Source of the DNA: Amoebophrya sp. A120
Taxonomy: Eukaryota; Protista; Dinoflagellata
Direction: 5' to 3'
DNA length: 64,000 nt
Assembly (NCBI GenBank): GCA_905178155.1
Contig: CAJINV010000007.1
Coordinates: 814,627-878,626, forward strand
Part shown: piece by piece, positions 3 through 18,700 of the stretch
Position numbering within the stretch: the first letter of the stretch is position 1
How the letters are laid out: each line of letters starts with the position of its first letter
Position numbers and translations under genes: made by a program
The notes under the pieces: model-generated
Told to the model about the DNA's origin: nothing
Database searches by the model: none
What the model saw: the letters and a program-made list of their open reading frames with translations, nothing else

Positions 3-1070
3 CCCGCTGCTGCCTCCAGTAGCGGCTCTAATCTCGCCGATCCCGGGCCGAGTCCTATCCCGGAGTCCATCGACGAGCAGACCGCAGAGTTAATTAATCT
101 TTTATCTGATGTTATCGAGCTACCGGAGGAAACCCCCGCAGGAGGCGCCGAAGCGCAGCCAGCGGGTGAGAACCCCGCAGCCAGTTCTAGCGCAGCACCA
201 GCCACGGCGAGTGCAGGACACACGTCCACAGCACTTGTAGTCGACGATGGCTGGGTCGGTGACGATGAGCTGGAAGAATACGACTTCGTCACGGCGTCAG
301 AGGCAGAATCGGAGACGATGGACATTGACCAGCAAATTAACCAAATCATGCTGAACTCGATGTCCGCACCAAACAGGAAAAAAGTAATCAAGGAATCGAA
401 AACCTGGGACAGTTTCGCGCGCGGCGTGACGAAACTCGATCTCGATTTATTCCCGAACGCCATTGCGTTCTTCGACGATCTACCGCTAGACGCGACCGTG
501 AAAGAGATGACTTCCGCGCAGCTCGACTCGTTTGTGTCGCAAAGCATCGCGGAATCCACAGCAAAAACATACCAATCCTTCCTCTCCGTAGTCGTGCCGG
601 AGGTCTGTGACCTCGCGGGAAAAATAATCTGGCCGGTAAAATCGGAAAGGCAGGCGATCGCGTTCTTCTGCTTGTACCAGATGGCCATGCGGAAGAACCA
701 CAAGGACAAATTAGTCGACGGCAAAATAAAATGGGGCAATTTCACGACGCTGCAGGCCGCAATCAACGTGTACAATTCCACCAGGCCGGAGTTATGCGAC
801 TACAGCCTGTCCAACAAGACGTTGCTTTTCTACAGACTGTGGAGATCCTTCAAGAACTTGGCGTACCACGCGCCCCGGTCGCGAAAATTGCCGATAAAGT
901 TTGAGGAAGTCATGCTAGTAATCCAGCAAGCCTACAAACAATTCAAGGAAGCGCACAAGTCGATAGACTGGGACGAAGCCCAGCCCGCGTTCAACCGGGT
1001 GACGATTTCGGCCGCGCCGCAGGCGCCGCCACGATCGGACCTCAGAAACCGGAAGTCGCGAACAAGTTGA
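3..1070 (+). CDS. 5'-partial ORF: acidic linker plus N-terminal (core-binding) part of tyrosine recombinase
   Basis: Frame is open from nt 3 through the ATG at 318; motifs SQSIAESTAKTYQ and RKLPIKFEEV are typical of the N-terminal part of DIRS YR. Confidence 0.7.
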   Translation, partial: PAAASSSGSNLADPGPSPIPESIDEQTAELINLLSDVIELPEETPAGGAEAQPAGENPAASSSAAPATASAGHTSTALVVDDGWVGDDELEEYDFVTASEAESETMDIDQQINQIMLNSMSAPNRKKVIKESKTWDSFARGVTKLDLDLFPNAIAFFDDLPLDATVKEMTSAQLDSFVSQSIAESTAKTYQSFLSVVVPEVCDLAGKIIWPVKSERQAIAFFCLYQMAMRKNHKDKLVDGKIKWGNFTTLQAAINVYNSTRPELCDYSLSNKTLLFYRLWRSFKNLAYHAPRSRKLPIKFEEVMLVIQQAYKQFKEAHKSIDWDEAQPAFNRVTISAAPQAPPRSDLRNRKSRTS

Positions 1071-1888
1071 AGAAGGCTATCGCGCTGCAGAGCGTCTGCA
1101 TAATCGCCATCGGTTTTTTCGGCGTCAGGAGAAGCGCTGAAATCAGGGAGCTGGAGTACAGCGACGTGGTCAAACACCGCATGAGCAGCGGCGAAATCTA
1201 CTTCGAAGTGCGAACAAAATTCGCCAAAAGCGATCGGTTTGGGAGGCAGTCTTACTGCGTCATCCCCGCCCTAATCTCACCGGTAGTCATGACGTGGAAG
1301 AAATGGGCAAGCGGTTTCATCGCGCACCACTCTAATCGAAGATACGCAGAAGCCGACCACCCGTTTTTCTTCGGCATAGGTGCCACGAACTACAAGGGCC
1401 GGGGAAAGAAAGTCAGCAAAGACTTCGTTCGCCACCACGTGAAAGAACAGTTCGTGTACGCGAGGAAGGGTACTTTCCAAGGTTCCGTGTCACTGCGACA
1501 CTCGGGCGCCCAGTTCTACCGGGACTCGGACCCGCGCGGTGAAGTGGCATTTTCCCAGGGCGGCTGGCGCAATAGCATGTGCCTAGATGGGACGTACGCC
1601 CCAATCAGGCACGACCACCTAATCTCACTCGTCAATCAATACTCGCAATCGGCCGCGAAGAGGTCTGAACAAGTTATGATAGTAATCGAATGCGAGAGAA
1701 CCTGGGCGCTCCCGCCGTCCTCGGTTTCCAAGCTCGGGGCATTGGAAAGCGCTACGCGGAGATTGAGCAGCAATTTCATCTCGCGCGCCGCGATCGAGAC
1801 ACACGCACCAAAGATCGCTGCAGGCCTGTTAAACGGCTCCATCAAGCCACAGTGCTTCCGCATTTTCCATGAGATCCTGTGCAACTAA
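1067..1888 (+). CDS. Tyrosine recombinase catalytic domain (-1 frame relative to upstream ORF)
   Basis: FFGVRRSAE (R), AKSDRFG (K), VSLRHSG (HxxR box with H->V), GGWRNS (W), GTYA (Y); frame open from 905. Confidence 0.85.
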   Translation: MKKAIALQSVCIIAIGFFGVRRSAEIRELEYSDVVKHRMSSGEIYFEVRTKFAKSDRFGRQSYCVIPALISPVVMTWKKWASGFIAHHSNRRYAEADHPFFFGIGATNYKGRGKKVSKDFVRHHVKEQFVYARKGTFQGSVSLRHSGAQFYRDSDPRGEVAFSQGGWRNSMCLDGTYAPIRHDHLISLVNQYSQSAAKRSEQVMIVIECERTWALPPSSVSKLGALESATRRLSSNFISRAAIETHAPKIAAGLLNGSIKPQCFRIFHEILCN

Positions 1889-2174
1889 TCTCCGCTGTCT
1901 CATACTGTATTTTTGTTGAAGCAACTGGGCGCGTTTTTTTGTTAAAAAGACGAAGGTGACGTCGACCAAAGGTAATTTTTTTCAAGAAAAAAATACGAGT
2001 TGCACGCAATCCGACATCGAGACATGAGATGCTAGATCCTCCCTTTCGAGCCTTTGTGTTCCGCAGTGCCCGCGTTGGCTGAGCAATCATTTCGGAGAGC
2101 AGGCACAGCGCCGCTGAAGCCGCTTCCTAATCTTTGCCTCTCTCGTTTTGCGTTAGGACGTGTTTCAGTAATCC

Positions 2175-5100
2175 ATGCTAGGTCGGAAAAAAGATGGCAG
2201 CAGGCTTCCCACCATATGGGAGGAGGACCCGCATAGCCCGCGCGCGAGAGCTTCGAATAAGCGCTCGGCACCTGCGAGCACGTCGCCGTCGCCCGCAGGC
2301 CCCGCCACAGCAGCCGCGCACGATATCCACAGCACGGGGTACACAGGTGTAGCAGGCACCAGTCGCCCACCGGCAGCGCATATCAAGACGGGTTTCAAGT
2401 TCCGCACTAGGCACAGGGAGCCGATCCCGGGGGTGCACAGCGGGGCGACGCAAGAAGAAATTAGTCTGGGTCTCAACCCGAAGTCAAGCCATACCTTCCA
2501 TGAGTACATCCACGCCGGATGTCCCACGACGTCCGACGAGATCGCTGACTTCGTCGCGTCACTGCCGGGGCCGGACGACGAGTGGCGCCGCGCAGAGGAC
2601 ATGTGCATGATCGAGGGGAACTCCCTCAACTTAGAAAACTGCATCAGGTACGGTGTCCCACCGGCAAAAATACTGGAGTGGTTCGGTGGCTACAGGTTCG
2701 ACATGACAGACCCAGACATGGCGATAACGAGGCAGCAGAACTACAGCAACGCATTCGACTACGCTGAACTTTTCACGGACGAAGTATACCGCTTCTGGCG
2801 CGACCGGAAGCTAGTCCTGTACGACGTGAAAAGGGAGAACACCTTGGGGCACCCAGATAGTCTCATGATCGCCCCCGCCACAATCCTAATCCAAAAATGG
2901 GGGCAGAAGCTGAGACTAGTCACCGACTGGAGCTCCAAGGGCACTATGCTTAATCCATCCATCTACCCGCCGCCAGTGGACTACAGTAACATCCAGCGCC
3001 TCCTTTGGGACATGCAACCGCTGGCATGGTTAATCGGACTAGACTGGAAGGATTGTTTTGCACACTGGCCGCTGTGCCCCGAGCACAGGCGTTTCTTCGG
3101 CATGGACCTCCCACACACGGAGAATTCCGGGTGCCACTGCTTCATGCCTTTCGGTGTGAAGCCGGCGCCCGGCGTCAATGATGCAAACATAAAAACCATG
3201 ATTGCATGCGGAATCAACGCCGGGATTCGGGCCCAGTCGTGCGATTACGTCGACGACGTCCGAGCGCTGTTGAAGCACATGCAAAACAGCAAAGAGGAAC
3301 TCCAGAAAGAACTCGACAAAATGTTTGTAGTTTACCAGCAACTGGGAGCCATCCTGCATACCAAGCCGGGGAAGCTAATCAAACCGACCCAAGTCTGCCC
3401 TTGGCTCGGGCTAGTAATCAACACAGTGCTGATGCGGGTTTACATCGAGAAGGAGCGTCTCGATTCGTACATCGCGGACGTCACAGAATTCCTGCGTATC
3501 GTCGACGACGCGAAGAGCAAGAAGGCTGAGAACCCGAGGGCCAAGGACCTCGCGGCTGTCGCGGGCAAACTGCAGTCTGTGACCATCGTAGTCCACAACG
3601 GGCCTCTGCACCATCTGCATGAAGATCTGAAGAAGACGGGTGTGCATAAGAGGTGGCAGACTGACAAAAAATTCAACCCGCGCGTGCAAATTTCTGACAA
3701 ATCCGTAGATCAGTTGAAATGGTGGCTTCGAGTGCTCCAAGCTAACCCGTACGCCAAAATCTTCACAAGTCGGCCACTCCACAGGGAGCACACGCAGCAG
3801 GTTTCCTGTTTCCTGTGGCGCTCGGATATCCTAGACCACGGACCGCAATTCCTCAGGTCGCTGCCCCCCGCACGCTTCACCGTTATCCACGGCGACGCAT
3901 CCACGACGGTGGGCATGTGGGGCGGTACTATCTCTGGAATCAAGGAGACGTTCCAAGGCAAGTACCCGCCGGGAATCGCGATATCGAGTATCAACGTGAA
4001 GGAGTCGTTCGCGCTCCTGATGTTAATCAAAGCCGCGAACAAAAACCAAGTCCGCATGCGCGACCAGCTTCTAATGTACTACACGGACAACGTCACTTCA
4101 AAGCGAGTCGCAAACAAGGGATCCTACCACGACCCCCTGCTCGCGGATATCTCCAGCGAACTACGGGAACAGTTAATCCTCTACGGCAACGAACTAATCG
4201 GCGCGAAGATCGACGGGGACGCAAACCCTGTCGCGGATTGCCTTTCCAGGTTCGCCGACGAGCTCCTCGCGTTTCGCGACCCGTGTCCAGAAAGACGCTT
4301 CAACGCCAGGGCCTGGGGCTCTATCTCCGCGAAGTTCAAAGGCATGTCCTTCGAAGGTTTCACCGCCGGGGACAACGACCCACTGGCGAGAATCGGGAAG
4401 AAGTACAACGAGCGCGTCCCGGTTTTCCACCACTACAACGAGTGGGAGGCGGGCAGATCGTGGTGGTTCCCACCGATCTCAATAATCTTCCCTGTAATCA
4501 AGTACATCAACAAACTCGTACACACAGTGCCCCTGGAAGCAAGGCCGAGGATAGCGCTGTGTGTCCCGAAGCTCGGCGACAGGTTCACGAAACTACTGGC
4601 GCCGCTGCTGCTCGCGATGACGTTTAAGCAGGGCACGCAGTGCTTTGAAAAAGCTTCTGGCGAAAAAGTCACCGCTGAGGACACTTTCTTCGTCTACTCG
4701 ACGGCCCCGCTTCCGCTGTGGAGCGTCGACAGAAACAAGTATAATCTCGCCCCGCAGGTTGAACGACTCAGGGGCTCCGCAAAATGGAAATACCAGCTTA
4801 ATCTACTCGAAAAACCAATAATCGGAGGGCTCGGTGAGGGTGAAGAAGATTTTTTCATCCACATCTGCCCGGTGATGCCGGTAGAAACACCGAAAGGTGT
4901 CGCCGCGGCGCTCTACAAGCTCTTCCCAGCAGCGTCGAGGTACCACGAGCCCGTGGAAGCCAAGCCGTTCGGCGGCTTCGAGCAGCGCGGTCGGGTGGTC
5001 AACTGTTATGCAATGTTTAACAAAGGCCCCCCCCGGGGAACATTGCTGCACAATTACAAGGGGAATTACTATGACGACTCGAGCGACGCCAGGCGCGACC

Positions 5101-5327
5101 GGTTTCAAAAGATCATGTGCGATCTCGCGGCTGCCCTCGTAAGCACCCACGCAGCCCGCAAACAGCAAGGCTACTCGGGCACCACCGTCGGCATCCCGCT
5201 GAACATCGGGACGGGGTACAACGGGGGGAAAGTTGAGGACTACGCTTTAATCCTAGACAGATTTGCAAAAGACACTAAGCCTACTGGCATCAAAGTCAAC
5301 TTCTACCTGCCGGAACAGAAGCCGTAA
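2175..5327 (+). CDS. Pol: reverse transcriptase - RNase H - DIRS-type adenine MTase-like - macrodomain
   Basis: RT: LDWKDCF, MPFG, YVDD. RNase H: GDAS, SINVKE, YTDN, ADCLSR. MTase-like: WWFPPISII..IALCVP. Macro: FIHIC..GVAAAL..FP and IPLNIGTGYNGG. Confidence 0.9.
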   Translation: MLGRKKDGSRLPTIWEEDPHSPRARASNKRSAPASTSPSPAGPATAAAHDIHSTGYTGVAGTSRPPAAHIKTGFKFRTRHREPIPGVHSGATQEEISLGLNPKSSHTFHEYIHAGCPTTSDEIADFVASLPGPDDEWRRAEDMCMIEGNSLNLENCIRYGVPPAKILEWFGGYRFDMTDPDMAITRQQNYSNAFDYAELFTDEVYRFWRDRKLVLYDVKRENTLGHPDSLMIAPATILIQKWGQKLRLVTDWSSKGTMLNPSIYPPPVDYSNIQRLLWDMQPLAWLIGLDWKDCFAHWPLCPEHRRFFGMDLPHTENSGCHCFMPFGVKPAPGVNDANIKTMIACGINAGIRAQSCDYVDDVRALLKHMQNSKEELQKELDKMFVVYQQLGAILHTKPGKLIKPTQVCPWLGLVINTVLMRVYIEKERLDSYIADVTEFLRIVDDAKSKKAENPRAKDLAAVAGKLQSVTIVVHNGPLHHLHEDLKKTGVHKRWQTDKKFNPRVQISDKSVDQLKWWLRVLQANPYAKIFTSRPLHREHTQQVSCFLWRSDILDHGPQFLRSLPPARFTVIHGDASTTVGMWGGTISGIKETFQGKYPPGIAISSINVKESFALLMLIKAANKNQVRMRDQLLMYYTDNVTSKRVANKGSYHDPLLADISSELREQLILYGNELIGAKIDGDANPVADCLSRFADELLAFRDPCPERRFNARAWGSISAKFKGMSFEGFTAGDNDPLARIGKKYNERVPVFHHYNEWEAGRSWWFPPISIIFPVIKYINKLVHTVPLEARPRIALCVPKLGDRFTKLLAPLLLAMTFKQGTQCFEKASGEKVTAEDTFFVYSTAPLPLWSVDRNKYNLAPQVERLRGSAKWKYQLNLLEKPIIGGLGEGEEDFFIHICPVMPVETPKGVAAALYKLFPAASRYHEPVEAKPFGGFEQRGRVVNCYAMFNKGPPRGTLLHNYKGNYYDDSSDARRDRFQKIMCDLAAALVSTHAARKQQGYSGTTVGIPLNIGTGYNGGKVEDYALILDRFAKDTKPTGIKVNFYLPEQKP

Positions 5328-5457: not shown

Positions 5458-5610
5458 GCTAAGCTCTCGCGCCTCGACAGCTCCGGTTGTCGCCTCGTGT
5501 CGCTGAGATCATCAGTCTCTCTCTTATTCGCGACTGAGGTTGTTTTAGGGCGAGCCCGACGTGCCGGCAAATGGGCAACATAACGAATCGATCTTTTCAT
5601 AGTGATCAAA
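5458..5610 (+). repeat. Split direct repeat copy B1
   Basis: Identical to 6009-6161 (gctaagctctcg...gtgatcaaa). Confidence 0.95.
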
Positions 5611-6008
5611 GTTATGGACTCTGAGTAGCGCGTAGCGGTTCGTTTGAGTTCCAATTTTGAGAGCGGTATTAGATCGTGTTCGTTTTGTTCCCAGTGTTCT
5701 CGTAGAGTATTTGCCGGGGTCTGGTACACGCATCCGGGGTATAAACAACGTGTCCATAATCCTTTAATCCTAATCGCTAATCCTAGTCGTATTCGCAATC
5801 ATAATCAAAAATTTTCTTTTTACCCACCCTCCCACACCTCAGCGAGCGTGGCTTAGTCTACGTCCAATCCACTAATCGCCGCAGAACACCCATTCAAAGT
5901 CTAACTCTGAAAATCTTATTCGTCTTTCGTTAAACTTGTGTCTGTGACATGTTCTAATACCAATCTTACTGTCACGTCCCCTCGCCCTTCAACAGGGTGC
6001 GAAGGCTT

Positions 6009-6161
6009 GCTAAGCTCTCGCGCCTCGACAGCTCCGGTTGTCGCCTCGTGTCGCTGAGATCATCAGTCTCTCTCTTATTCGCGACTGAGGTTGTTTTAGG
6101 GCGAGCCCGACGTGCCGGCAAATGGGCAACATAACGAATCGATCTTTTCATAGTGATCAAA
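6009..6161 (+). repeat. Split direct repeat copy B2 (element 3' end)
   Basis: Identical to 5458-5610. Confidence 0.95.
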
Positions 6162-7119
6162 ATTATGCTCGGTATCTGTCATCATGAAAAATGCGAAATA
6201 GATGAAATAGCAGATCAAATTCGAATTCCTGTGCCGGTCGACGCCAGTAGCATGCACTTGGGATGGTCACCCACCGAAGATCCCTAAAGACGGCCACCAA
6301 AGTTCAAATATTTGATCGAGAAATAATCTTCCACAACGACGATCAGACTCATAGGAAAAAAAAAACTTCTAAAGACCACGAAAATGAAGAATAAGATCCG
6401 CAATAAATAGAAAATATGAAGATCAAGATGGATCTCGTTCGGAGCAAATGATCTGTCGTGATGCAACGCCAGTTCTTGTGTAGGAACAGCGTCTGATCAA
6501 TTTGCACGAGAGAGTTAACCTTTACCACATCTTCATTCTTCCCTTATTGTTTCCAGGGAGTGTTGCTTATTTCGCACCTAATGCACGATTTCTGCTCTGA
6601 TGCACACACTAACACTAAGTATTGACTATACTTAAGCCAAAACTTACAGCCGTTTGTTGTTTATCGCTTCGCACTTTTTTTCAAGACCAACGCTTCTATA
6701 CTTTTATCAAGCACGAGGACGAAAAATCAAGACTTCACGACACGTGTTTTAATTCAAGGAGTACGACGCGTAAGCAGTTTAGCGCTATCTTTTGAGCAGT
6801 TGTGTTTTTTGTTTTTAGTGGAGTTGATGTGTATAATTTATTGTTTTGATAGGTTTTGCTTTTGTAGTTTGACCGCAGGGTTGTGGTTGACCATCCCAAC
6901 GTTCACAAAAGAGGACAGTCTTGTTTTGTCAAAAGGATTTTTTGGAATATTCAGATTCACTACTAGTTAGACGAAAGCGGTTCATACGACCTTGGAATAA
7001 AGTTTTAGACAAGGTGCTTTTTTTTTTTGAATTTGTAATGTTCAGTTTTAAGATTGCCTGCAGCTGTTGTGTAATGTGAAGAAGTACTAAACTATTGCCA
7101 GTATATTTCTCAATAGACC

Positions 7120-10100
7120 ATGCAGCCGGCGAGCATTTTGCACCGCGACTGCGATCCGAAGCACCAGCACGATCACTTGCATGTGCACTTTGCGGACAAT
7201 AAGGAAATAAATTCCCTACCTAGCGACCACACATCACGTCAAGTCGCCATGGTGCCTGATCGTGCTGGTGGAGATCTAGATCATGCAACGACTGATGTAG
7301 TCAACACGTCAACAAAAAAGTTGGTATCGCCGCCACGTCGACCTTCCTCGCTGCACTATGATGATGAGGATCCACGACCTAGAACAATGGAGGCTCCTGC
7401 AGGAGAAAAAATAAATGTTGACAATAACTTTAACTCGACCTCCACGTACAACTACCCCGGTGCGGCCGCCCGGGACCACGAGAATGCGGCTCTACTGCTG
7501 AGTGCGGGAGATGAAGTTGTTGTACTAGTGGATACTACTAGTGCTACGAATGGTGCAGAAGTGGGACACGTTCATGAACATGCTGCTGCAGATCAGGAAC
7601 AGGAGATGGAGAATGATGAAACACAAACAACCCCCTCGTCCCGCGAAGGCTGTTGCCGGTGCACGAAAATGTGCGTCCTGATCCTTCTCCTCATATTTCT
7701 TGTCCTCGCAGGCGGTGCGTGCGTTTTCATTTTCGTTCCCTGGTTCGACGGTTGGACTGAATCCTGGTACACAAGATGGAGAAAAGGATGGGACGACTCT
7801 ATTACAGTGAAAAGTGCCCCCCACTCCTGAAATTGCAAAAATTTGTGATGCGAGGTTTCCAAATGAAAACTTTTCGTCATGCATGAAAGGAGTATGAATC
7901 TACTTTCTGATGCAGAGCCTAGGCGTGTATCGCATCGCCTGCATGACCAGCGCCGCTCTTGCTAGCGTCTTTTGCTATACAAATTTTTGCTATTCACGAT
8001 TGGGAACCTGTGATGCTGATAGATGCAAGAGGGCGAGTGTTTCACTTGGAAGGGTTTGCAATACAAACGCTCCCAAGTTCGGGGGTGGGAGCATTTTTCA
8101 TTGCAATAGACTCTCAACAGCCTTCATGGCCTTCTCAACCTGGTTCTCAATCTCAACACCACGTGGAGATCGACTACAACGACGGCCCAGGGGTGTGGCC
8201 AACAGCGGACTTAGAAAACGTTAAGGAACCAGTGGGAATGATGCACGAGAAATACCACGGCTTTTTGACCCAAGCCTCGATTGACTACGTGGAAAGGAAT
8301 TTCTACAAAAAAACTGTTGTTCCTGTTCCACCTGGTGGAGCACCACCACCTCCACCTCCGCCACAACCTCCTGTCCAGACGAAAATTCCGCGAAATCTGA
8401 TCCTCACGGCGTTTTTTGACGAAAAGGATGTGACCTTGGACGAGTTTTTGCGGTATCAGAAGTGGCGGGACCCGACAAAAACAGAAGGGTTTGCGCAGTG
8501 GGCCGAGTTGAACGCCGGACCGGGAAAGGAGTTTGAAGTGAAGTTCTTCAACCTGAATGCGGCCAGAGAGTACCTGCAGGAGCATTACAAAAAGGAGATG
8601 CTCTGGGCATTCGATGCGTTCGATACCTACTGCATGAAATCCGATTTGTTCCGCTTGCTAGTCCTGTACCGGGAAGGGGGGGTGTACATCGACTGGAAGC
8701 TCGCCCCGGTCGTCGACTGGGACAAGTTGTTGGAGATGGCGTTTTCCGGGACGGAAAAGTTCCGGTCTCCAAGAAAAGTGACGAGAGACCCAGTGACGAA
8801 AAGGGTCGTTTCGGAGGAAAAAATGCAGTCCAAGGACGACATTGGACTCATCTTCGCCTGCCAAGACTTCACGTTTTCGTTTGGGGTCGAAGACCCTAAC
8901 TTTTTCGAATCATTCCCGGCCATCAAGCAGTTGCCGAACTGGCCGAACCAAGACTCCTCACTACAAGGCTTGATGAACGCTTTCATCGCGGCGAAACCGC
9001 TAAACTTACTCCTCGGGGACATGATCTACCACTTATTCCGCCGCGTGGAATTGCACGCGTACGGAAACACCGTGTGGGATACCACGGGGCCGATAGGCCT
9101 CTACATCTCCTTACTCCGCGTAGACCCGGTATGGATGTGTCAGGTTTGAAATCGTCAGAGTTGAAATAGTTTGCCATGCATAAAATGGATGCCAGTTCAA
9201 GTGGCCCATGTTGGAGCCCAGTTTTCAAGTGGCCCATGACAAGTTTTGGTGGTACCTAAATCCAGTTTGTAATGCTGTTTGGGTAAAGAAGACGCCTTTT
9301 GTCATGCTACTTTAGCAGCTCTATTTCTACCCCTCAACAGGCTTGCAATATGCCTCCCTTGCCTACTCTCCAAGACAGGCGCTCTGTGGGTTGCATTTTA
9401 TGCATCACAAATTATTTCAACTTTGACGATTTCAATCCTGACGCTTCCATACCCGGCCACGAAAGTGACAAAAATGCCAGAGGTGCTGCAGCAGGCCCTC
9501 GCGCGGCACCAACTACGAGCCGCGCGAAGGACGTTGTTTCGAACCGGGGGGCAGATGACACAGACTTCACCTACTACACAGCGTCACCAGGGTTTAATAA
9601 ATCTTCAAAACCGTGCACAGACTAGTGCAGCTCCGAACAATTCGACGCCTTCAAACCTCGCCGGTTTCCTCGACTCTGCGCAGTGGACTATCCAACGACA
9701 AGCGCGGCGGAAAAACGGCGATGTGCTGGGAAAGTGGGAGTGTTCGCAGCTCCAGGGGGGGCCGGGCGACGCGGCGTTTCTGGTCTACAACGGAGGGAAG
9801 CACTGGTTTCCCAACCACGAAATCGCCTATTCCCATCCGGGGAATGACCCAGAGATGGATAAGCTCGCCGTGGTAAAAAACGTTTGGTCGGGCAAACACG
9901 CGGGCGGCGGATGGAACCACGACGGCACCCAAGCGCTGCCGTCCGACATCCCCCGCCACCTCAACGGGCGGAACTACATGGAAGACTGGAAGGAAAGGAA
10001 GTGGTTCGCAGCCAACTGCTACGCATTGCAAATATGTAGTCTGGGTCCTAGAAAGGATCGCAATTTGTGATGCGAATTCTACATCATGACGAAATCAAAA

Positions 10101-12767: not shown

Positions 12768-15700
12768 ATGGTGGCAGCCAATATGGCGTTCTCAAACGTT
12801 ACATTCTCAACTGTTACACGAATTTGCAATGCAAGAATAGCAAAAGTCAAAGGAGGAAGGCTGCACCTCTAGCATTACAAACTCCGCACAGATTTAGGTG
12901 CTTTTTAGCCCTTCGCAAATTTGTCATGCAAAGCAGTTTGCTCGTATGGATCTTGATGGTAGTTTTGCATGACAAATTCATGTAACAGCTGAGAATGTAA
13001 CGTTTGAGAGCGCCATAGCCAATCACAGCAACGCTGCCGGCGATTGGAACAACGCGTCCAAGTGGGGGCCTCCTAACAAAGCGGCGAACAACAAGTGGAA
13101 AAGCAGCAAGAATGCTGGCGACCACAACTCCAACTGGAACAGTAGCACCGGGAACAATGGTGCAACGTGGGGAAACAACAACAATAACTGGAAAAACAAC
13201 AAGAAGAATTGGAACAAAAACAACGCGAATCATCAAAAGGCGAACTGGAACAACGGTGCTAGTGGTTACAACGACGGGATGCATAATTACAACAGCGGAG
13301 GTGGTTCATGGGGACAGGACCAACAGCAGGGATGGAGCAACGGTCACCAAGGTATGATGGCGGGTCAGGATCAGCAGGGAGGTCCTGCTGGGTACAGCAA
13401 TGGATACGGTGGCAGCAATGGTTCTTACAACAACCAACAATACGATCAACAGCACCACCAGATGGGTACTAACACGACGGCGTCCGGTGCTGATTACAGC
13501 CAGCAGATGCAGTACGGACAAGAGCAGCATCAAAACGGTAATATGATGGACCATGGACACGGACAGTACAGCCAGCAACAGCAATACAACCTCCAGCAAG
13601 TAGATCCGTACAATCCCATGAGCGGCAACGTGGACCAGATGTACAGCCAGCAACAAAATATCACACAGAAAAAAGCTGGCAGGGCATATTTGTAATGCAA
13701 AAATAAATACACAAAAAAATCTGTATTGCATATCCGAAACAGCATGCTATGGGGCCACCCATGACAACTTTTTCTGTGTATTTATTTTTGCATTACAAAT
13801 ACAAATATGCCCCGCCAGCTTTTTTCTCTGGGATACAAAACGGATCGTACAATCACGAGACGAGTTCCATGATGCACCAGCAGCACCAGCAGAACAACAT
13901 GCAGCCAGAAGTTTACAACAACAGCAACGGGGCACCAGCTAGTCATGGCCGGGACGATGTGCCCCCCGTCGGCATGATGCCAGCTGCGGGCATGCATTCC
14001 GACAGTCAGAGTAATCAGGGTCCCTCCCTCTCGGACCAACTACGGGAACAGCTGATGCAGCAATTAAAGAAGACCCAACAAGAAGCGGCGGCTGTAAATC
14101 ATCTTCGTGAGGGTCAAGCGAATAAAAGCTCCGAGAAGCGGCGCCCGCGGGGAACAAGGGTATAGGATTTTGGCGATGGAGATATACTGCCTGTCATGCA
14201 GGAGAACTGCGGTGAAGGTGATTTAGGTTTTATAAAGTGCTAGCTCGTCATGCATCTGCATGCATGATTGTTCATTAAATTATCAAAATCAATATCATAT
14301 ACAAGAATGTCGTTACTACAGAACACCCCTGCGACGCCGATCTCGTCAAACACTTCGCCGTTGAAACCGGTCGCGTTGGAAATAGATCCCGACGAACCGG
14401 AGCTGAAGGTATGATATGATAAAACTACAAGAAGAGCGTGTGTTTGTGATGCATAACAGGTACAGGAACTGCCGGCGTATTACTATCTAAACTGCAGCAG
14501 CTGGTCAAAAATGCAGGCGAGGGGTATGTTCGGGGGTATGTTCGGGGGTGTGTCAGGGGTATGCAAATGGCCGTCAATCACGGGCGGATTACAATTTTTT
14601 GGCGAAAAAGCAACAGGTGGGGTATAAACATACCCCAGACACACCCCAGACACACCCCAGACATACCCCAGACAGACCCCCGAACACACCCCAGGCAAAA
14701 AGTCCGAACATACCCCAGACACACCCCGGACACACCCCGGGCAGACTTTCCGACACACCCCGGGCAGACTTTCGGACACACCCCGGACACACTTTGGGAC
14801 CTCGCCACGCGAGATGTGCAATGGCGGGCTCCAGTTTGTCACGCGAGCCGCCACCCTGTCGAGCTTCCCGGGCCCCGTTGGCAAGGCCCAGGGACGAAAG
14901 GCGCCCTCGGTCAGCGCGGGGACCCGGTCCCCGTGTCATGACCTGGGGGCCAGATTTGGGCGCTTCCCGGACACCGTACGGCCCAGGGGCAAAAGCCCTA
15001 GGTCAGCGCGGGGACTCGGTCCCCGCGTCATGACCTAGGGGCCAGCTATGGGCGCTTACATCCCGGAAACCAACCGCATGGCCCAGGAACAAAAGCCCTA
15101 GGTCAGCGCGGGGACTCGGTCCCCGCGTCATGACCTAGGGGCCAGCTTTGGGCGCTTCCCGGAAACTAACCGCACGGCCCAGCCAGGGGCAAAAGCCCTA
15201 GGCCAGCGCGGGGACTCGGTCCCCGCGGGGCCAGCTTTGGGCGCTTCCCGGAAACTAACCGCACGGCCCAGGGGCAAAGCCCTAGGCCAGCGCGGGGACC
15301 CGGTCCCCGCGCGCGTCATGACCTAGGGGCCAGCTTTGGGCGCTTCCCGGATGGAAACTAACCGCATTACCGAGGAGCAAAAGCCCTACCTAGGGCAGCG
15401 CGGGGACTCGGTCCCCGCGTCATGACCTAGGGGCCAGCTTTGGGCGCTTCCCGGAAACTAACCGCATTGCCGAGGCGCAAAAGCCCTAGGTCAGCGCGGG
15501 GACTCGGTCCCCGCGTCATGACCTAGGGACCAGCTTTGGGCGCTTCCCGGAAACTAACCGCATGGCCGAGGCGCAAAAGCCCTAGGTCAGCGCGGGGACT
15601 CGGTCCCCGCGAGCGTCATGACCGAGGGGCCAGCTTTGGGCGCTTCCCGGAAACTAACCGCATGGCCGAGGCGCAAAAGCCCTAGGTCAGCGCGGGGACT

Positions 15701-18700
15701 CGGTCCCCGCGAGCGTCATGACCGAGGGGCCAGCTTTGGGCGCTTCCCGGAAACTAACCGCATGGCCGAGGCGCAAAAGCCCTAGGTCAGCGCGGGGACT
15801 CGGTCCCCGCGTCATAACGTAGGGGCCAGCTTTGGGCGTTTCATTCCCGGAAACTAGCCGCACGGCCCAGGGGCAAAAGCCCTAGGTCAGCGCGGGGACT
15901 CGGTCCCCGCGTCATGACCTAGGGGCCAGCTGCAGACCCGGCGCCAGCTTCTTCCTTTCTGTTTTCTTTGTTCGCGGTAGGTTAACGGGTCTAGTGTGGG
16001 CAAGCAGAGGGGCTCCGTCCGCAGATCTGTCGCGGATCAGGGGACGCAGCCCACACAGAAACACCGGGCTGCAGGGGTCTGCCTGCCCAGTGCCACCACA
16101 ACCCCCGAACTCGTCCCAGACAAATGCCGGAAGGTCGCCGCACGGGGACTCTGTCCCCGTGCTCGGACCTTGTTTCTCATGCAAAATCTTATTCTTTCAA
16201 AACAAAGCCTTCTGATAGTGATACTAGTACTACCGAGAAGGAATTTTGTTTTGTAGATGAACTACCTGCTATCCACGAACTTCTCTCACGACAGACTCCC
16301 GGGGGTCCGGAAAACCAGAAAAGCAGCATCCATCGTCCGAAAAGTAGCAAGTTCCTGAAATCTGACGACAAGTCTGACGATAACTCCACCAACAGCAAAA
16401 AATCTCGGGTTTGCACGCCGCCGCTCCCTATGGATTTCAAAAATGTCTGGGTCTGGAAGATTGTGATTGTCAGATTTGTCATGCAGCTTTTCCATGATTC
16501 ATGAGGTCTGGAATGCAGGACCTAGCATCACAGATTTTTAGGGGGCCTCCTGATGCCTAGTCCGCATGACGAATGCCCTCTCCACGTAGCACAAGGTGGA
16601 CTCTTCTTGCTGTCCACGTAGCACAAGCGGGTGTCCACCTAGGGTATTGGCAGAGGCTAAATCTGTTCTAACGCCACGGTATTGGCAGAGGCTAAATCTG
16701 TTCTAACGCCACCCTGACAGGAGTCAAATGTCAAAGCGATACGATGCACGTAGCACAAGCTGGACTCTTCTTGCTGGTCATGCAACACAGATCTTTTTAG
16801 AATCCAAAAGCAGCATCACAAGTTGCAACCTTCCAGACCCAGACATATTTGCATTTGATACTCCCCCCAAATAGTACTTCTAATTCACATTCGGACAATA
16901 AAAACAACAAAACATCTTCCAGTCTGCTTTCCGGCGCGAATTCTTTATTCGCGGGCAGTCCAGGAGGAGTGGAAGGCACGAATTTGAATCCGCTGTTAGC
17001 CGCTGCGGCGGGTGCGGGCGGCGCTGGAGGTGGGGCGAGTAGTGGAGCAGGAGCAGCTGCTGGTGCTCCGGGTTCTTCGAATCCTGCTTTATCAAATGCA
17101 AAAATGTCTGGGTCTGGAATGTTGCCGGGTTTGTCTTTGTCGTGCATATTTTGCATGACCCAGGATGTCTGTAATACAGGACCTAGCATCACAGATTTTT
17201 AGAGGGCTTCCTGGTGCCTATTCCGCATGAAAAATGCCCTCCCCGCGTAACACAAACTAGACTCCTCTTGCTGATCATGCAATACAGATTTTTTTGGAAT
17301 CCAAAGCTAGCATCACAAGCTCCAACCTTCCAGACCCAGAGATGTATGCGCTTGATACGCTTTGTCCGCGTATGACCAGATGTTCAACGACCTCCTCGGG
17401 TTCTACACTGCGAACCCAAGTTTGATCCCCGGCTTCCCCGGAGGTTTACCTGGTGCAGCAGCTCCGGGAGCAGGAATGATTCCCGGAGCAGCTCCCGCTG
17501 GTTTGCTGCCGGGTCTGGCCGGGTTACCTGGGTTGCCCGGAGCTGCAGGACCGCTCGGGGTTCCAATGCCGGGGTTTCCAATGGTGCCGGGCTTGGGTGG
17601 TTTTCCAGGGCTCCCAGGAACTGCGGGGTTGCCTGGCGCTATCCCCGGATTTCCGGACCCGACGGCCCTGTTTCCAGGATTGGATTATGGGAAAATTCTG
17701 GGCGAGACCTGGGGTGCAGCGGGATTGACTTTGGTATAGTTGTTTCTTCCCATAGTACTTTGATGCATCTTGAGCATGACAGAAGATCTCGATGTGGTCG
17801 TGTTTGGTGAACTTGCTGCTTGTCCAGTACTTGTCGATGCGAAGAACTTAAATGTTAATATATCTGAAATCACCGGTTGTACAACATGATCTCCAAAACA
17901 GCCCCCGCCGTTCGACGGCTCGGTTACCTTCGACGAGTGGATGGCACAGTATGGGACTCTCAAATGTTACATTCTCAACTGTTACACGATTTGTCATGCA
18001 AAATTGCCATCAGTATCTGCATGATCAAGCTGCTGCGCATGACAAACGGCAAACAGGCTGAGAATCTGTGCCAAATCTGTCATGCAAGACGCGCAAGGTC
18101 CCCCTTTTCACGTTTGCCGTTCTTGCATCACAAATTCATTTAACAGCTGACAGTGTAACGTTTGAGAATGCCATACACAGGCGGCTTTCGCCGGAGCTGG
18201 TGGTTTTCCCGGAGCTGGAGGACCAAAGGTTGCTGGTGGCCCTTTTTCCGCCCCCGGAAGTGGACTGATGGGCGGTGCAAAAGGTGGGAAATTTGGCGGC
18301 GGCGGTGCACCAGACGGTTGGTGGAATTCGATCGGGAAACACGGAAGCAGTAGTAGTGGTGGTCCTACATCCACCACAAACGAGTCCGAGCGTCCCCCGC
18401 CCACCTCCTGGTACGCGAATAAAAACGGGAAAGGTGTTGCAACCAACAACCCAGTATGCATTGCAAAAGTATCGTATTCGTATAAATGCATCACAAATTT
18501 CCTCAGCATGAGAATAGAAGTTGTAATGCGGATTTGACTTAACGAAAAGATTTGTAATGCATGATTGCAATACGAGTACGACGCTTTTGCACAGGATACC
18601 CAGACTCCACAAACAAGCCCGGTGCGCATGGGAAGAACAACCCGGAGGCGTACCAGAAGATGATGCGCGAGTGGTACCAGTCGTGGGATCCGACCGGAAA

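What the first reader, a model, noticed from the sequence alone, without database searches (positions are those of the whole stretch)
4790..5327. YR retrotransposon Pol ends in a macrodomain (RT-RNaseH-MTase-Macro fusion)
Seen: after the RT, RNase H and MTase-like segments, the same ORF carries ~170 aa with FIHICP..PKGVAAALYKLFP, VVNCYAMF..G, RRDRFQKIM and TVGIPLNIGTGYNGG..DYALILDRF. Established: this pattern resembles Poa1p/TARG1/DarG-type macrodomains (ADP-ribose binding or hydrolysis), which viruses use against host ADP-ribosylation. Inference: the element may carry a counter-defence module protecting its RNA/cDNA circle or proteins, paired with a DNA-marking MTase. I do not know of this fusion in DIRS-order elements.
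Basis: partly seen in the sequence, partly recalled or inferred. Interest (0 to 1): 0.85.

Follow-up and report, generated by a model that had tools for sequence, protein, structure and literature searches.

The report
Retrotransposon Pol carries disarmed macrodomain
A recently inserted jumping gene has, fused to the end of its copying enzyme, a domain predicted to fold like enzymes that strip ADP-ribose tags, but the residues those enzymes need for cutting are replaced, so it likely binds rather than cuts and may shield the element from a host defence.

Summary
Observation confirmed. One open frame (2172-5327, 1051 codons) carries RT, RNase H, a Dam-like segment and a C-terminal macrodomain (about 4806-5315). 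The domain scores 81.7 bits on a profile of 40 relatives (best shuffle 6.7), folds at pLDDT 84.6 and aligns with DarG (Z 14.0), Poa1p/TARG1 (13.1) and SCO6735 (12.5). The enzyme reading is weak. The position equal to SCO6735 Gln85 / DarG Lys80 / TARG1 Lys84 is Met (Gln in 40 of 40 relatives), the Asn27 position is Pro, and the adenine-binding Asp is Gly. The fold core and the GxG phosphate loop are kept. The element's terminal repeats match over 153 of 153 bases, and each change needs 2-3 base changes, so they predate this insertion. Best reading: a non-catalytic binding module or decoy on the Pol of a PAT-like element. No second copy was found, so conservation is untested. I found no paper with a macrodomain in a DIRS-order element, but ADP-ribose-type domains in other retroelements are published. 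This scan earlier noted eraser domains in LTR elements (another genome, and a copia of this genome), none in a YR element. New variant; interest 0.5.

The parts
4806..5315 (+). C-terminal macrodomain of Pol (aa 879-1048), ALC1-like class, with a rebuilt ligand pocket
4827..4829 (+). Gly886 (GGG) at the adenine-binding Asp position (Asp 30, Asn 7, Ser 3 of 40 relatives)
   Evidence: TARG1 D20 role from a PMC6397177 passage
4869..4871 (+). Pro900 (CCG) at the SCO6735 Asn27 position (Asn in 34 of 40 relatives, Pro in none)
5013..5015 (+). Met948 (ATG) at the SCO6735 Gln85 / DarG Lys80 / TARG1 Lys84 position (Gln in 40 of 40 relatives)
5205..5228 (+). Phosphate-binding loop IGTGYNGG: four glycines kept; Cys, Leu, Ala of the family replaced by Thr, Tyr, Asn
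2172..5327 (+). Pol ORF, stop to stop 1051 aa, first ATG at 2175: N-terminal extension, RT, RNase H, MT-like segment, macrodomain
2619..3491 (+). Reverse transcriptase (LDWKDCF, MPFG, YVDD at 3246)
   Evidence: Pfam RVT_1 E 0.0026, below the curated cut-off; motifs
3867..4271 (+). RNase H with the D, E, D, D motifs present
   Evidence: motifs (motif meaning recalled); Atlas RT_RNaseH clusters 0.93, family on 12% of members
4272..4751 (+). Dam-like MT segment (FPPI at 4467), activity unknown
   Evidence: Atlas Dam clusters 0.92 and 0.88, family on 13-17% of members; no profile hit
300..1888 (+). Tyrosine recombinase gene upstream of Pol, in two frames (3-1070 and 905-1888); a 47-nt GT..AG stretch at 999-1045 would join them
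   Evidence: tblastn best E 0.04, 9 of 10 listed rows annotated recombinase or integrase; catalytic motifs read by eye (recalled)
5458..5610 (+). Split direct repeat B1, identical to B2 over 153 nt
5612..5823 (+). Split direct repeat A2, starting with the TTATG junction core; a second copy lies outside the window (inferred A1)
   Evidence: contig depth 88.9 vs 42.4 and 74.2 vs 22.8; a contig joins 5612 with a different upstream flank
6009..6167 (+). Split direct repeat B2 plus TTATG core: right end of the element

Best explanation
The Pol frame of a young tyrosine-recombinase retrotransposon ends in a domain predicted to have the DarG/SCO6735 macrodomain fold, with three pocket residues of that family replaced, so it likely binds rather than cuts and likely acts as a decoy or shield against host ADP-ribosylation of the element's RNA, cDNA or proteins. 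Shown: the fusion, the homology, the substitutions, the kept core and glycine loop, and identical terminal repeats. Inferred: (1) the domain was captured from the giant-virus/phage/protist family of stand-alone ALC1-like macrodomains; (2) DIRS-order elements have no protease (PMC3783388), so it would stay on Pol and travel with the template and the cDNA; (3) it lost hydrolysis and probably tight ADP-ribose binding but kept a phosphate-binding cleft; (4) it would cover phosphate ends or modified bases, or hold a host ADP-ribosyltransferase, as catalytically dead SCO6735, DarG and TARG1 mutants still inhibit DarT (PMC9411070 section 9). Steps 3 and 4 are untested.
For: Fold and family. Pocket: Gln in 40 of 40 relatives vs Met; Asn in 34 of 40 and Pro in none vs Pro; Asp/Asn/Ser in 40 of 40 vs Gly; Cys in 39 of 40 vs Thr. 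Q85A removes all SCO6735 activity on DNA and protein, and N27S nearly all on DNA. Kept: His24, Lys34, Gly126 and Gly128 equivalents and the Tyr/Gly/Arg/Pro columns that are invariant in 40 of 40 relatives. The changes predate insertion: each needs 2-3 base changes while B1 and B2 match at 153 of 153 sites. A last domain could be cut off by a stop at no cost to RT, yet the frame is open over the longest branch of the tree (3.66 vs median 0.95), which suggests selection on the fold (inference). Codon use matches the rest of the element (0.126 bits/codon vs 0.115 for RT).
Against: Only one copy is in hand, so conservation and dN/dS are untested. The domain keeps just 22 of 40 family-conserved columns, fewer than any relative (28-40), which also fits general decay. 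Loss of the adenine Asp argues against ADP-ribose itself as the ligand. Net charge is ordinary (+3, inside the relatives' range of -10 to +13), so nothing points to nucleic-acid binding. No host ADP-ribosyltransferase was shown, as no genome is held. The long branch may partly predate capture. The codon test is weak: two neighbouring host frames have a similar GC3 (0.66-0.68 vs 0.69) and the host set was picked by eye. The 40 relatives include near-duplicates (L001/L002, L007/L010/L011, the six UDG-clade rows).
Confidence: 0.45

Rival explanations
1. It is an active ADP-ribosyl hydrolase with a rewired active site, erasing marks on the element's RNA, cDNA or Pol.
For: The ALC1-like class already uses different chemistries: TARG1 a Lys plus acid dyad, DarG a Lys, SCO6735 neither (PMC7050489 passage). 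SCO6735 catalysis is proposed to run through the Val25 backbone and a water; Val or Ile there is called SCO6735-specific, and the window has Ile where 38 of 40 relatives have Gln. His24, Lys34, Gly126 and Gly128 equivalents are kept, and new polar residues (Thr, Tyr, Asn) sit in the phosphate loop. ADP-ribose-type domains recur in retroelements (PMC12477816, PMC4977317 passages).
Against: Met, Pro and Gly replace three ligand-contact residues at once, none of these replacements occurs in 40 relatives, and the paper calls the Asn conserved in almost all active macrodomains.
Confidence: 0.2
2. It is a captured passenger in slow decay: a once-active eraser now kept only as a folded tail, with no present function.
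For: Lowest retention of conserved columns (22 of 40) and longest branch; changes also at non-catalytic columns (Trp, Leu, Pro, Arg); one copy at 80-85% identity or more in the two DNA-like runs of one sample.
Against: No stop or frameshift in 185 codons of a terminal domain; the invariant Tyr, Gly, Arg, Pro and the glycine loop survive; confident model (though helped by the relatives' alignment).
Confidence: 0.2
3. It is a chromatin reader like the ALC1 macrodomain: it binds poly-ADP-ribose at damaged or open chromatin and steers the cDNA circle there for integration.
For: The ALC1-like class holds both readers and erasers; human ALC1 aligns at Z 11.7; chromatin readers are often fused to retroelements (bioRxiv 2021.11.30.470311 passages).
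Against: The adenine-binding Asp is Gly, and Gln85 is said to be conserved in ALC1 homologues too but is Met here; integration is done by the recombinase, a separate ORF, not by Pol.
Confidence: 0.1

Closest known systems
SCO6735-like / DarG / TARG1 / Poa1p macrodomains (ALC1-like class; PDB 5E3B, 5M3E, 4J5S, 6LFR, 2FG1)
   Same: Fold (Z 12.5-14.0, rmsd 2.5-2.9 A), His24, Lys34, Gly126 and Gly128 equivalents, GxG phosphate loop.
   Different: Met at the Gln85/Lys80/Lys84 position, Pro at Asn27, Gly at the adenine Asp; fused to a retroelement Pol.
Stand-alone macrodomain family of giant viruses, phages and protists (PHROG 335; Marseillevirus UDG fusion; phage Tk.4; NADAR fusion in a choanoflagellate; Polarella glacialis protein)
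   Same: Nearest sequence relatives, up to 31% identity over the aligned domain; best viral fold hit E 4.6e-9.
   Different: All 40 keep Gln; none of the 19 loci or 21 proteins showed RT, RNase H or YR at E<=0.1 against the window's own domains (10 of the 19 loci are under 3 kb).
PAT-like YR retrotransposons and SymbioDIRS-Dnmt3 of Symbiodinium (PMC3266345, PMC5890265)
   Same: RT-RH-MT Pol with split direct repeats; dinoflagellate DIRS-order elements have A-coding-B-A-B ends, both orders of YR and Pol, and an enzyme domain captured into Pol.
   Different: The extra domain here is a macrodomain after a Dam-like segment, not a cytosine DNMT, and it looks non-catalytic.
Retroelements with ADP-ribose-type domains: fish epsilon-like ERVs with macro-domain ORFs (PMC4977317, citing Basta 2009, which I did not read); NADAR in Ectocarpus Gypsy Pol and oyster Tx1 ORF1 (PMC12477816)
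   Same: A reverse-transcribing element carrying an ADP-ribose-handling fold; role unclear in print.
   Different: Other orders of element; in fish a separate ORF; NADAR is another fold and is described as highly conserved.

Membership tests
Macrodomain, ALC1-like class | Macro alpha/beta/alpha fold closest to DarG, TARG1, Poa1p, SCO6735 | tested here: met
   (top 15 VIA rows are all ALC1-like class or BT1257); profile hits
Macrodomain, ALC1-like class | GxG pyrophosphate-binding loop | tested here: met
   IGTGYNGG keeps the Gly126 and Gly128 equivalents
Macrodomain, ALC1-like class | Asp (or Asn) that binds the adenine amine (TARG1 D20) | tested here: not met
   Gly886; Asp/Asn/Ser in 40 of 40 relatives
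SCO6735-like hydrolase | Gln85 | tested here: not met
   Met948; mapped through the profile alignment to 5E3B and 40 relatives
SCO6735-like hydrolase | Asn27 | tested here: not met
   Pro900
SCO6735-like hydrolase | His24, Val/Ile25, Lys34 | tested here: met
   His897, Ile898, Lys908
DarG / TARG1 hydrolase | Catalytic Lys80 / Lys84 (same position as SCO6735 Gln85 per PMC9411070) | tested here: not met
   Met948
ALC1-like hydrolases | Removes ADP-ribose from DNA or protein | not testable with these tools
   needs an assay
PAT-like YR retrotransposon | Pol with RT and RNase H | tested here: met
   RVT_1 is below the curated cut-off, motifs are intact
PAT-like YR retrotransposon | MT (Dam-like) domain after RNase H | tested here: inconclusive
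   Atlas lead only; no profile hit; one E=6 phage hit; fold failed
PAT-like YR retrotransposon | Tyrosine recombinase ORF | tested here: inconclusive
   no Pfam, PHROG, NCBIfam or PDB hit of that kind; weak tblastn to annotated tyrosine recombinases, best E 0.04; motifs by eye
PAT-like YR retrotransposon | Split direct repeats A1..B1-A2-B2 | tested here: met
   B1/B2 seen; second A copy inferred from contig depth and a junction contig; A1 lies outside the window
PAT-like YR retrotransposon | RT/RH tree groups with PAT-like elements | not tested
   no reference YR-element sequences were obtained

The most novel reading that the evidence does not exclude
A DIRS-order retrotransposon carries a pseudo-macrodomain that blocks a host nucleic-acid ADP-ribosyltransferase by binding alone. 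That would expose a DarT-like anti-transposon defence in a protist, against which several element families of this genome have separately captured ADP-ribose domains.
Probability: 0.18. Interest if true: 0.8.

Novelty: new variant of a known kind. Interest (0 to 1): 0.5.

Why it matters
It adds a third order of retroelement to those carrying ADP-ribose-handling folds (ERVs and Gypsy, Tx1 LINEs in print). That pattern hints that hosts use ADP-ribosylation against retroelements, which is not established. A natural macrodomain lacking the adenine Asp, the Asn and the Gln/Lys while keeping its fold is also a direct test of what a non-catalytic ALC1-like domain can do. The 170-aa domain is easy to express and assay. 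If it is only a decaying passenger, it is one more case of domain capture by Pol.

Tried and rejected
No whole genome is held. Searches for other copies or relatives of the element found none: protein searches with the macro and RT-RH regions among proteins of 578-1840 aa, viral contigs with Pol, RT and YR, metagenome contigs with Pol, exact look-up, scan notes by sequence. These searches need close relatives, so they do not show absence. The macro profile against longer proteins gave 7 hits of 7994 scored: six UDG fusions and one Polarella protein, none with RT (the tool calls this weak evidence). The metagenome scan with A3 stopped at 52 of 64 parts. Prokaryote genomes gave no confirmed hit. 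Expression: no RNA holder listed; raw RNA runs X4-X6 covered neither the element nor its neighbours, so they are no test; RNA-guess contigs X7-X9 cover host DNA at 6555-7800 but not the element, which is not counted as evidence. Single-sequence fold of RNase H plus MT failed (pLDDT 33.6). Direct PDB sequence searches gave nothing useful. P0003 was rejected as a repeat artefact. DUF6408 and phrog_22123 hits cover only 19 and 34 residues and were set aside. The tree was the quick version only and does not place the window domain, so no donor is named. An ART-like N-terminus in the Polarella protein, seen by eye, got no Pfam or PDB support. No complex prediction was run.
Full report
Observation. 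The frame 2172-5327 (+) is open for 1051 codons. Family libraries do not name the last domain: Pfam gave RVT_1 (E 0.0026, under its cut-off) and no Macro; PHROGs and NCBIfam gave no macrodomain.

The last domain is a macrodomain. The Atlas feature search put a Macro-named cluster third at 0.93, with Pfam Macro on 29% of its members. phmmer of the last 185 aa against 1.84 billion representatives gave 15 hits at E<=1e-3. The top hit is a TPR/HEAT repeat protein matched over 32 residues and was dropped. The other 14 form one family (best E 4.7e-10, 35% identity). A profile of the window domain plus 13 of them hit 22 PDB sequences at E<=1, led by BT1257 (2AFC, 7e-9), SCO6735 (5E3B, 3e-5), Poa1p (3e-5) and DarG (2e-4); TARG1 scored 0.029. 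I then pooled 40 relatives: those 14, 7 longer proteins and 19 loci; P0003 and a second member of the P0016 cluster were left out. On a profile of these 40 alone the window domain scores 81.7 bits, its reverse -1.8 and the best of 2000 shuffles 6.7. AlphaFold2 gave pLDDT 84.6; the alignment rows are macrodomains, so the model is not independent of them. Foldseek found 59 PDB chains at E<=1e-3. VIA-align ranked DarG first (Z 14.0, rmsd 2.5-2.6 A over 137-138 aa), then BT1257 13.6, Poa1p and TARG1 13.1, SCO6735 12.5 and alphavirus domains 12.5 or less; rows within 1 Z are ties.

Where the family lives. The best viral fold hits are a Marseillevirus protein labelled uracil-DNA glycosylase (E 4.6e-9) and phage Tk.4. 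Six of seven longer relatives are UDG fusions and one is a Polarella glacialis protein. One is a NADAR fusion from a choanoflagellate transcriptome. Three of the three relatives scanned match PHROG 335. Four of the five viral loci lie on contigs of 209-505 kb, with neighbours such as kinases, EF-Tu-like and MSV199/T5orf172 genes, which fits giant viruses (inference). None of the 19 loci or 21 proteins matched the window's RT, RNase H, MT or YR at E<=0.1, but 10 loci are under 3 kb. The quick tree puts the window domain on the longest branch (3.66, median 0.95) without support, so no donor can be named.

The pocket is rebuilt. I mapped SCO6735 residues through the profile alignment to 5E3B. PMC9411070 (section 9 read whole, plus passages) reports that Gln85 is equivalent to TARG1 Lys84 and DarG Lys80, that Q85A removes all activity on DNA and protein, that N27S removes nearly all on DNA, and that Asn27 is conserved in almost all active macrodomains. 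PMC6397177 (passages) gives TARG1 D20 as the adenine-amine contact and GxG as the pyrophosphate loop. In the window: Gln85 position Met (Gln in 40 of 40 relatives); Asn27 position Pro (Asn 34, Cys 3, Tyr, Asp, Ser 1 each); adenine position Gly (Asp 30, Asn 7, Ser 3); the loop GCGLAGG is GTGYNGG (Cys 39, Leu 33, Ala 35 of 40). Kept are the His24, Lys34, Gly126 and Gly128 equivalents, an Ile at the Val25 position, and the Tyr, Gly, Arg and Pro that are invariant in 40 of 40. Of 40 columns conserved in at least 70% of relatives the window keeps 22; relatives keep 28-40. The relatives include near-duplicates, so 40 overstates independence.

The changes are older than this insertion. The codons are GGG, CCG and ATG, 2-3 base changes from Asp, Asn and Gln codons. 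The element's B repeats match at 153 of 153 sites (5458-5610 and 6009-6161), which for split-repeat elements means a recent insertion (established logic, recalled). So the parent element already had this pocket. A useless last domain could be cut by any stop without harming RT, yet 185 codons are open; I read this as selection on the fold, with the caveat that part of the divergence may predate capture. Codon use fits the element (GC3 0.69; 0.126 bits per codon against a host set, RT 0.115), a weak test since two neighbouring host frames have GC3 0.66-0.68. Net charge is ordinary.

The element. A recombinase-like gene lies upstream of Pol in two frames. Profiles miss it, but tblastn gives weak hits (best E 0.04), and 9 of 10 listed rows are annotated recombinase or integrase. 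A 47-nt GT..AG stretch at 999-1045 would join the frames; a frameshift mutation fits as well. An earlier unchecked note on intron-bearing YR elements in this genome (e1-10628424) made me favour the intron. The right end reads B1, TTATG, A2, spacer, B2, TTATG. Contig depth over 5612-5823 is two to three times that of the element body, and one contig joins 5612 from a different flank, so a second A copy exists outside the window. The Atlas links the RNase H-MT region to clusters with RT_RNaseH (12-20% of members) and Dam (13-17%). MT plus split direct repeats is the PAT-like layout (PMC3266345 and PMC6681497, passages and Background). One contig covers the element body in each of two runs of one sample, with no other copy at 85% or 80% identity; that sample may be the window's own source. 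The host is probably a marine parasitic dinoflagellate relative according to earlier scan notes; I did not test this.

How it most likely works. DIRS-order elements lack a protease (PMC3783388 passage), so the domain would stay on Pol and sit on the template and cDNA. I give 0.45 to a non-catalytic binder acting as shield or decoy; dead SCO6735, DarG and TARG1 mutants still inhibit DarT, which is the precedent. An active enzyme with new chemistry gets 0.2, since this class has changed mechanism before (PMC7050489 passages) and the Val25/Ile feature is present. A decaying passenger gets 0.2 and a poly-ADP-ribose reader for targeting 0.1.

What is in print. No paper in the library held macrodomain + DIRS + tyrosine recombinase + retrotransposon (0). 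Other searches: 'macro domain'/retrotransposon/Ngaro, any two terms (171 papers, 25 listed, none with 'macro domain'); macrodomain + retrotransposon + reverse transcriptase (12); 'macro domain' + retrotransposons + transposable elements (6); A1pp + retrotransposon (1); Appr-1 + retroelement (2); ADP-ribos + DIRS + retrotransposon (7). Most were seen as listings only. Passages read show macro-domain ORFs in fish epsilon-like ERVs (PMC4977317, citing Basta 2009, not read), NADAR in Ectocarpus Gypsy Pol and oyster Tx1 (PMC12477816), and DNMT capture into the Pol of Symbiodinium DIRS elements with both gene orders (PMC5890265). Passages of bioRxiv 2021.11.30.470311, PMC12130899, PMC7789003, PMC8120803 and PMC5087735 added background only. 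The library lacks most subscription papers; Repbase and Dfam were not available; I opened no supplements, and the Ectocarpus TE annotation notes and the DIRS domain tables could bear on novelty. Earlier scan notes report a TARG1-type domain in an LTR Pol of another genome and an eraser in a giant copia of this genome; both are unchecked leads.

Verdict. Real feature, new variant of a known kind: a macrodomain on the Pol of a DIRS-order element, not found in my searches, but probably disarmed and seen in one copy. Interest 0.5.

Noticed in passing
window 999-1045: The recombinase gene changes frame here; a 47-nt GT..AG stretch flanked by AACCGG on both sides would restore the frame if spliced. 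An intron in a retroelement is unusual; a 1-base frameshift is the alternative.
   Followed up: partly
window 2128-2168 and 1973-1985: A pyrimidine-rich tract with CTAAT and two AG ends lies just before the Pol ATG (2175), and a T-rich tract ending in CAAG lies further upstream; Pol may be made from a spliced RNA.
   Followed up: no
window 5611-5616, 6162-6178 and the loose end at 5612: All three junctions share TTATG. The base before it is G at the internal junction but A at both host junctions. The flank upstream of the other A copy holds the same 14 bases as the right flank, 16 bases before the junction, so the target may be a short host repeat.
   Followed up: partly
contig X1 record 1: The contig runs 6652 bases upstream of the window start before it breaks, so the element may be 12 kb or longer, large for this order.
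   Followed up: no
P0025 (Polarella glacialis, 557 aa), residues about 145-200: By eye an ADP-ribosyltransferase-like stretch (YHWT, G-GVY) precedes the macrodomain; Pfam and PDB searches gave no support.
   Followed up: partly
P0019-P0024, P0015: This macrodomain family is fused to uracil-DNA glycosylase in six proteins and to NADAR in one, which points to work on modified DNA; it falls below the Pfam Macro cut-off.
   Followed up: partly
window 7800-64000: Many dispersed repeat families with inverted arms interrupt host frames, with very high contig depth; they resemble introner elements.
   Followed up: no
window 14600-15930: A GC-rich tandem array with a unit of about 96-100 nt, preceded by 11-nt repeats.
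   Followed up: no
window 7947-9149: Host gene with a DXD glycosyltransferase domain (PF04488, E 5e-8) next to the element.
   Followed up: partly
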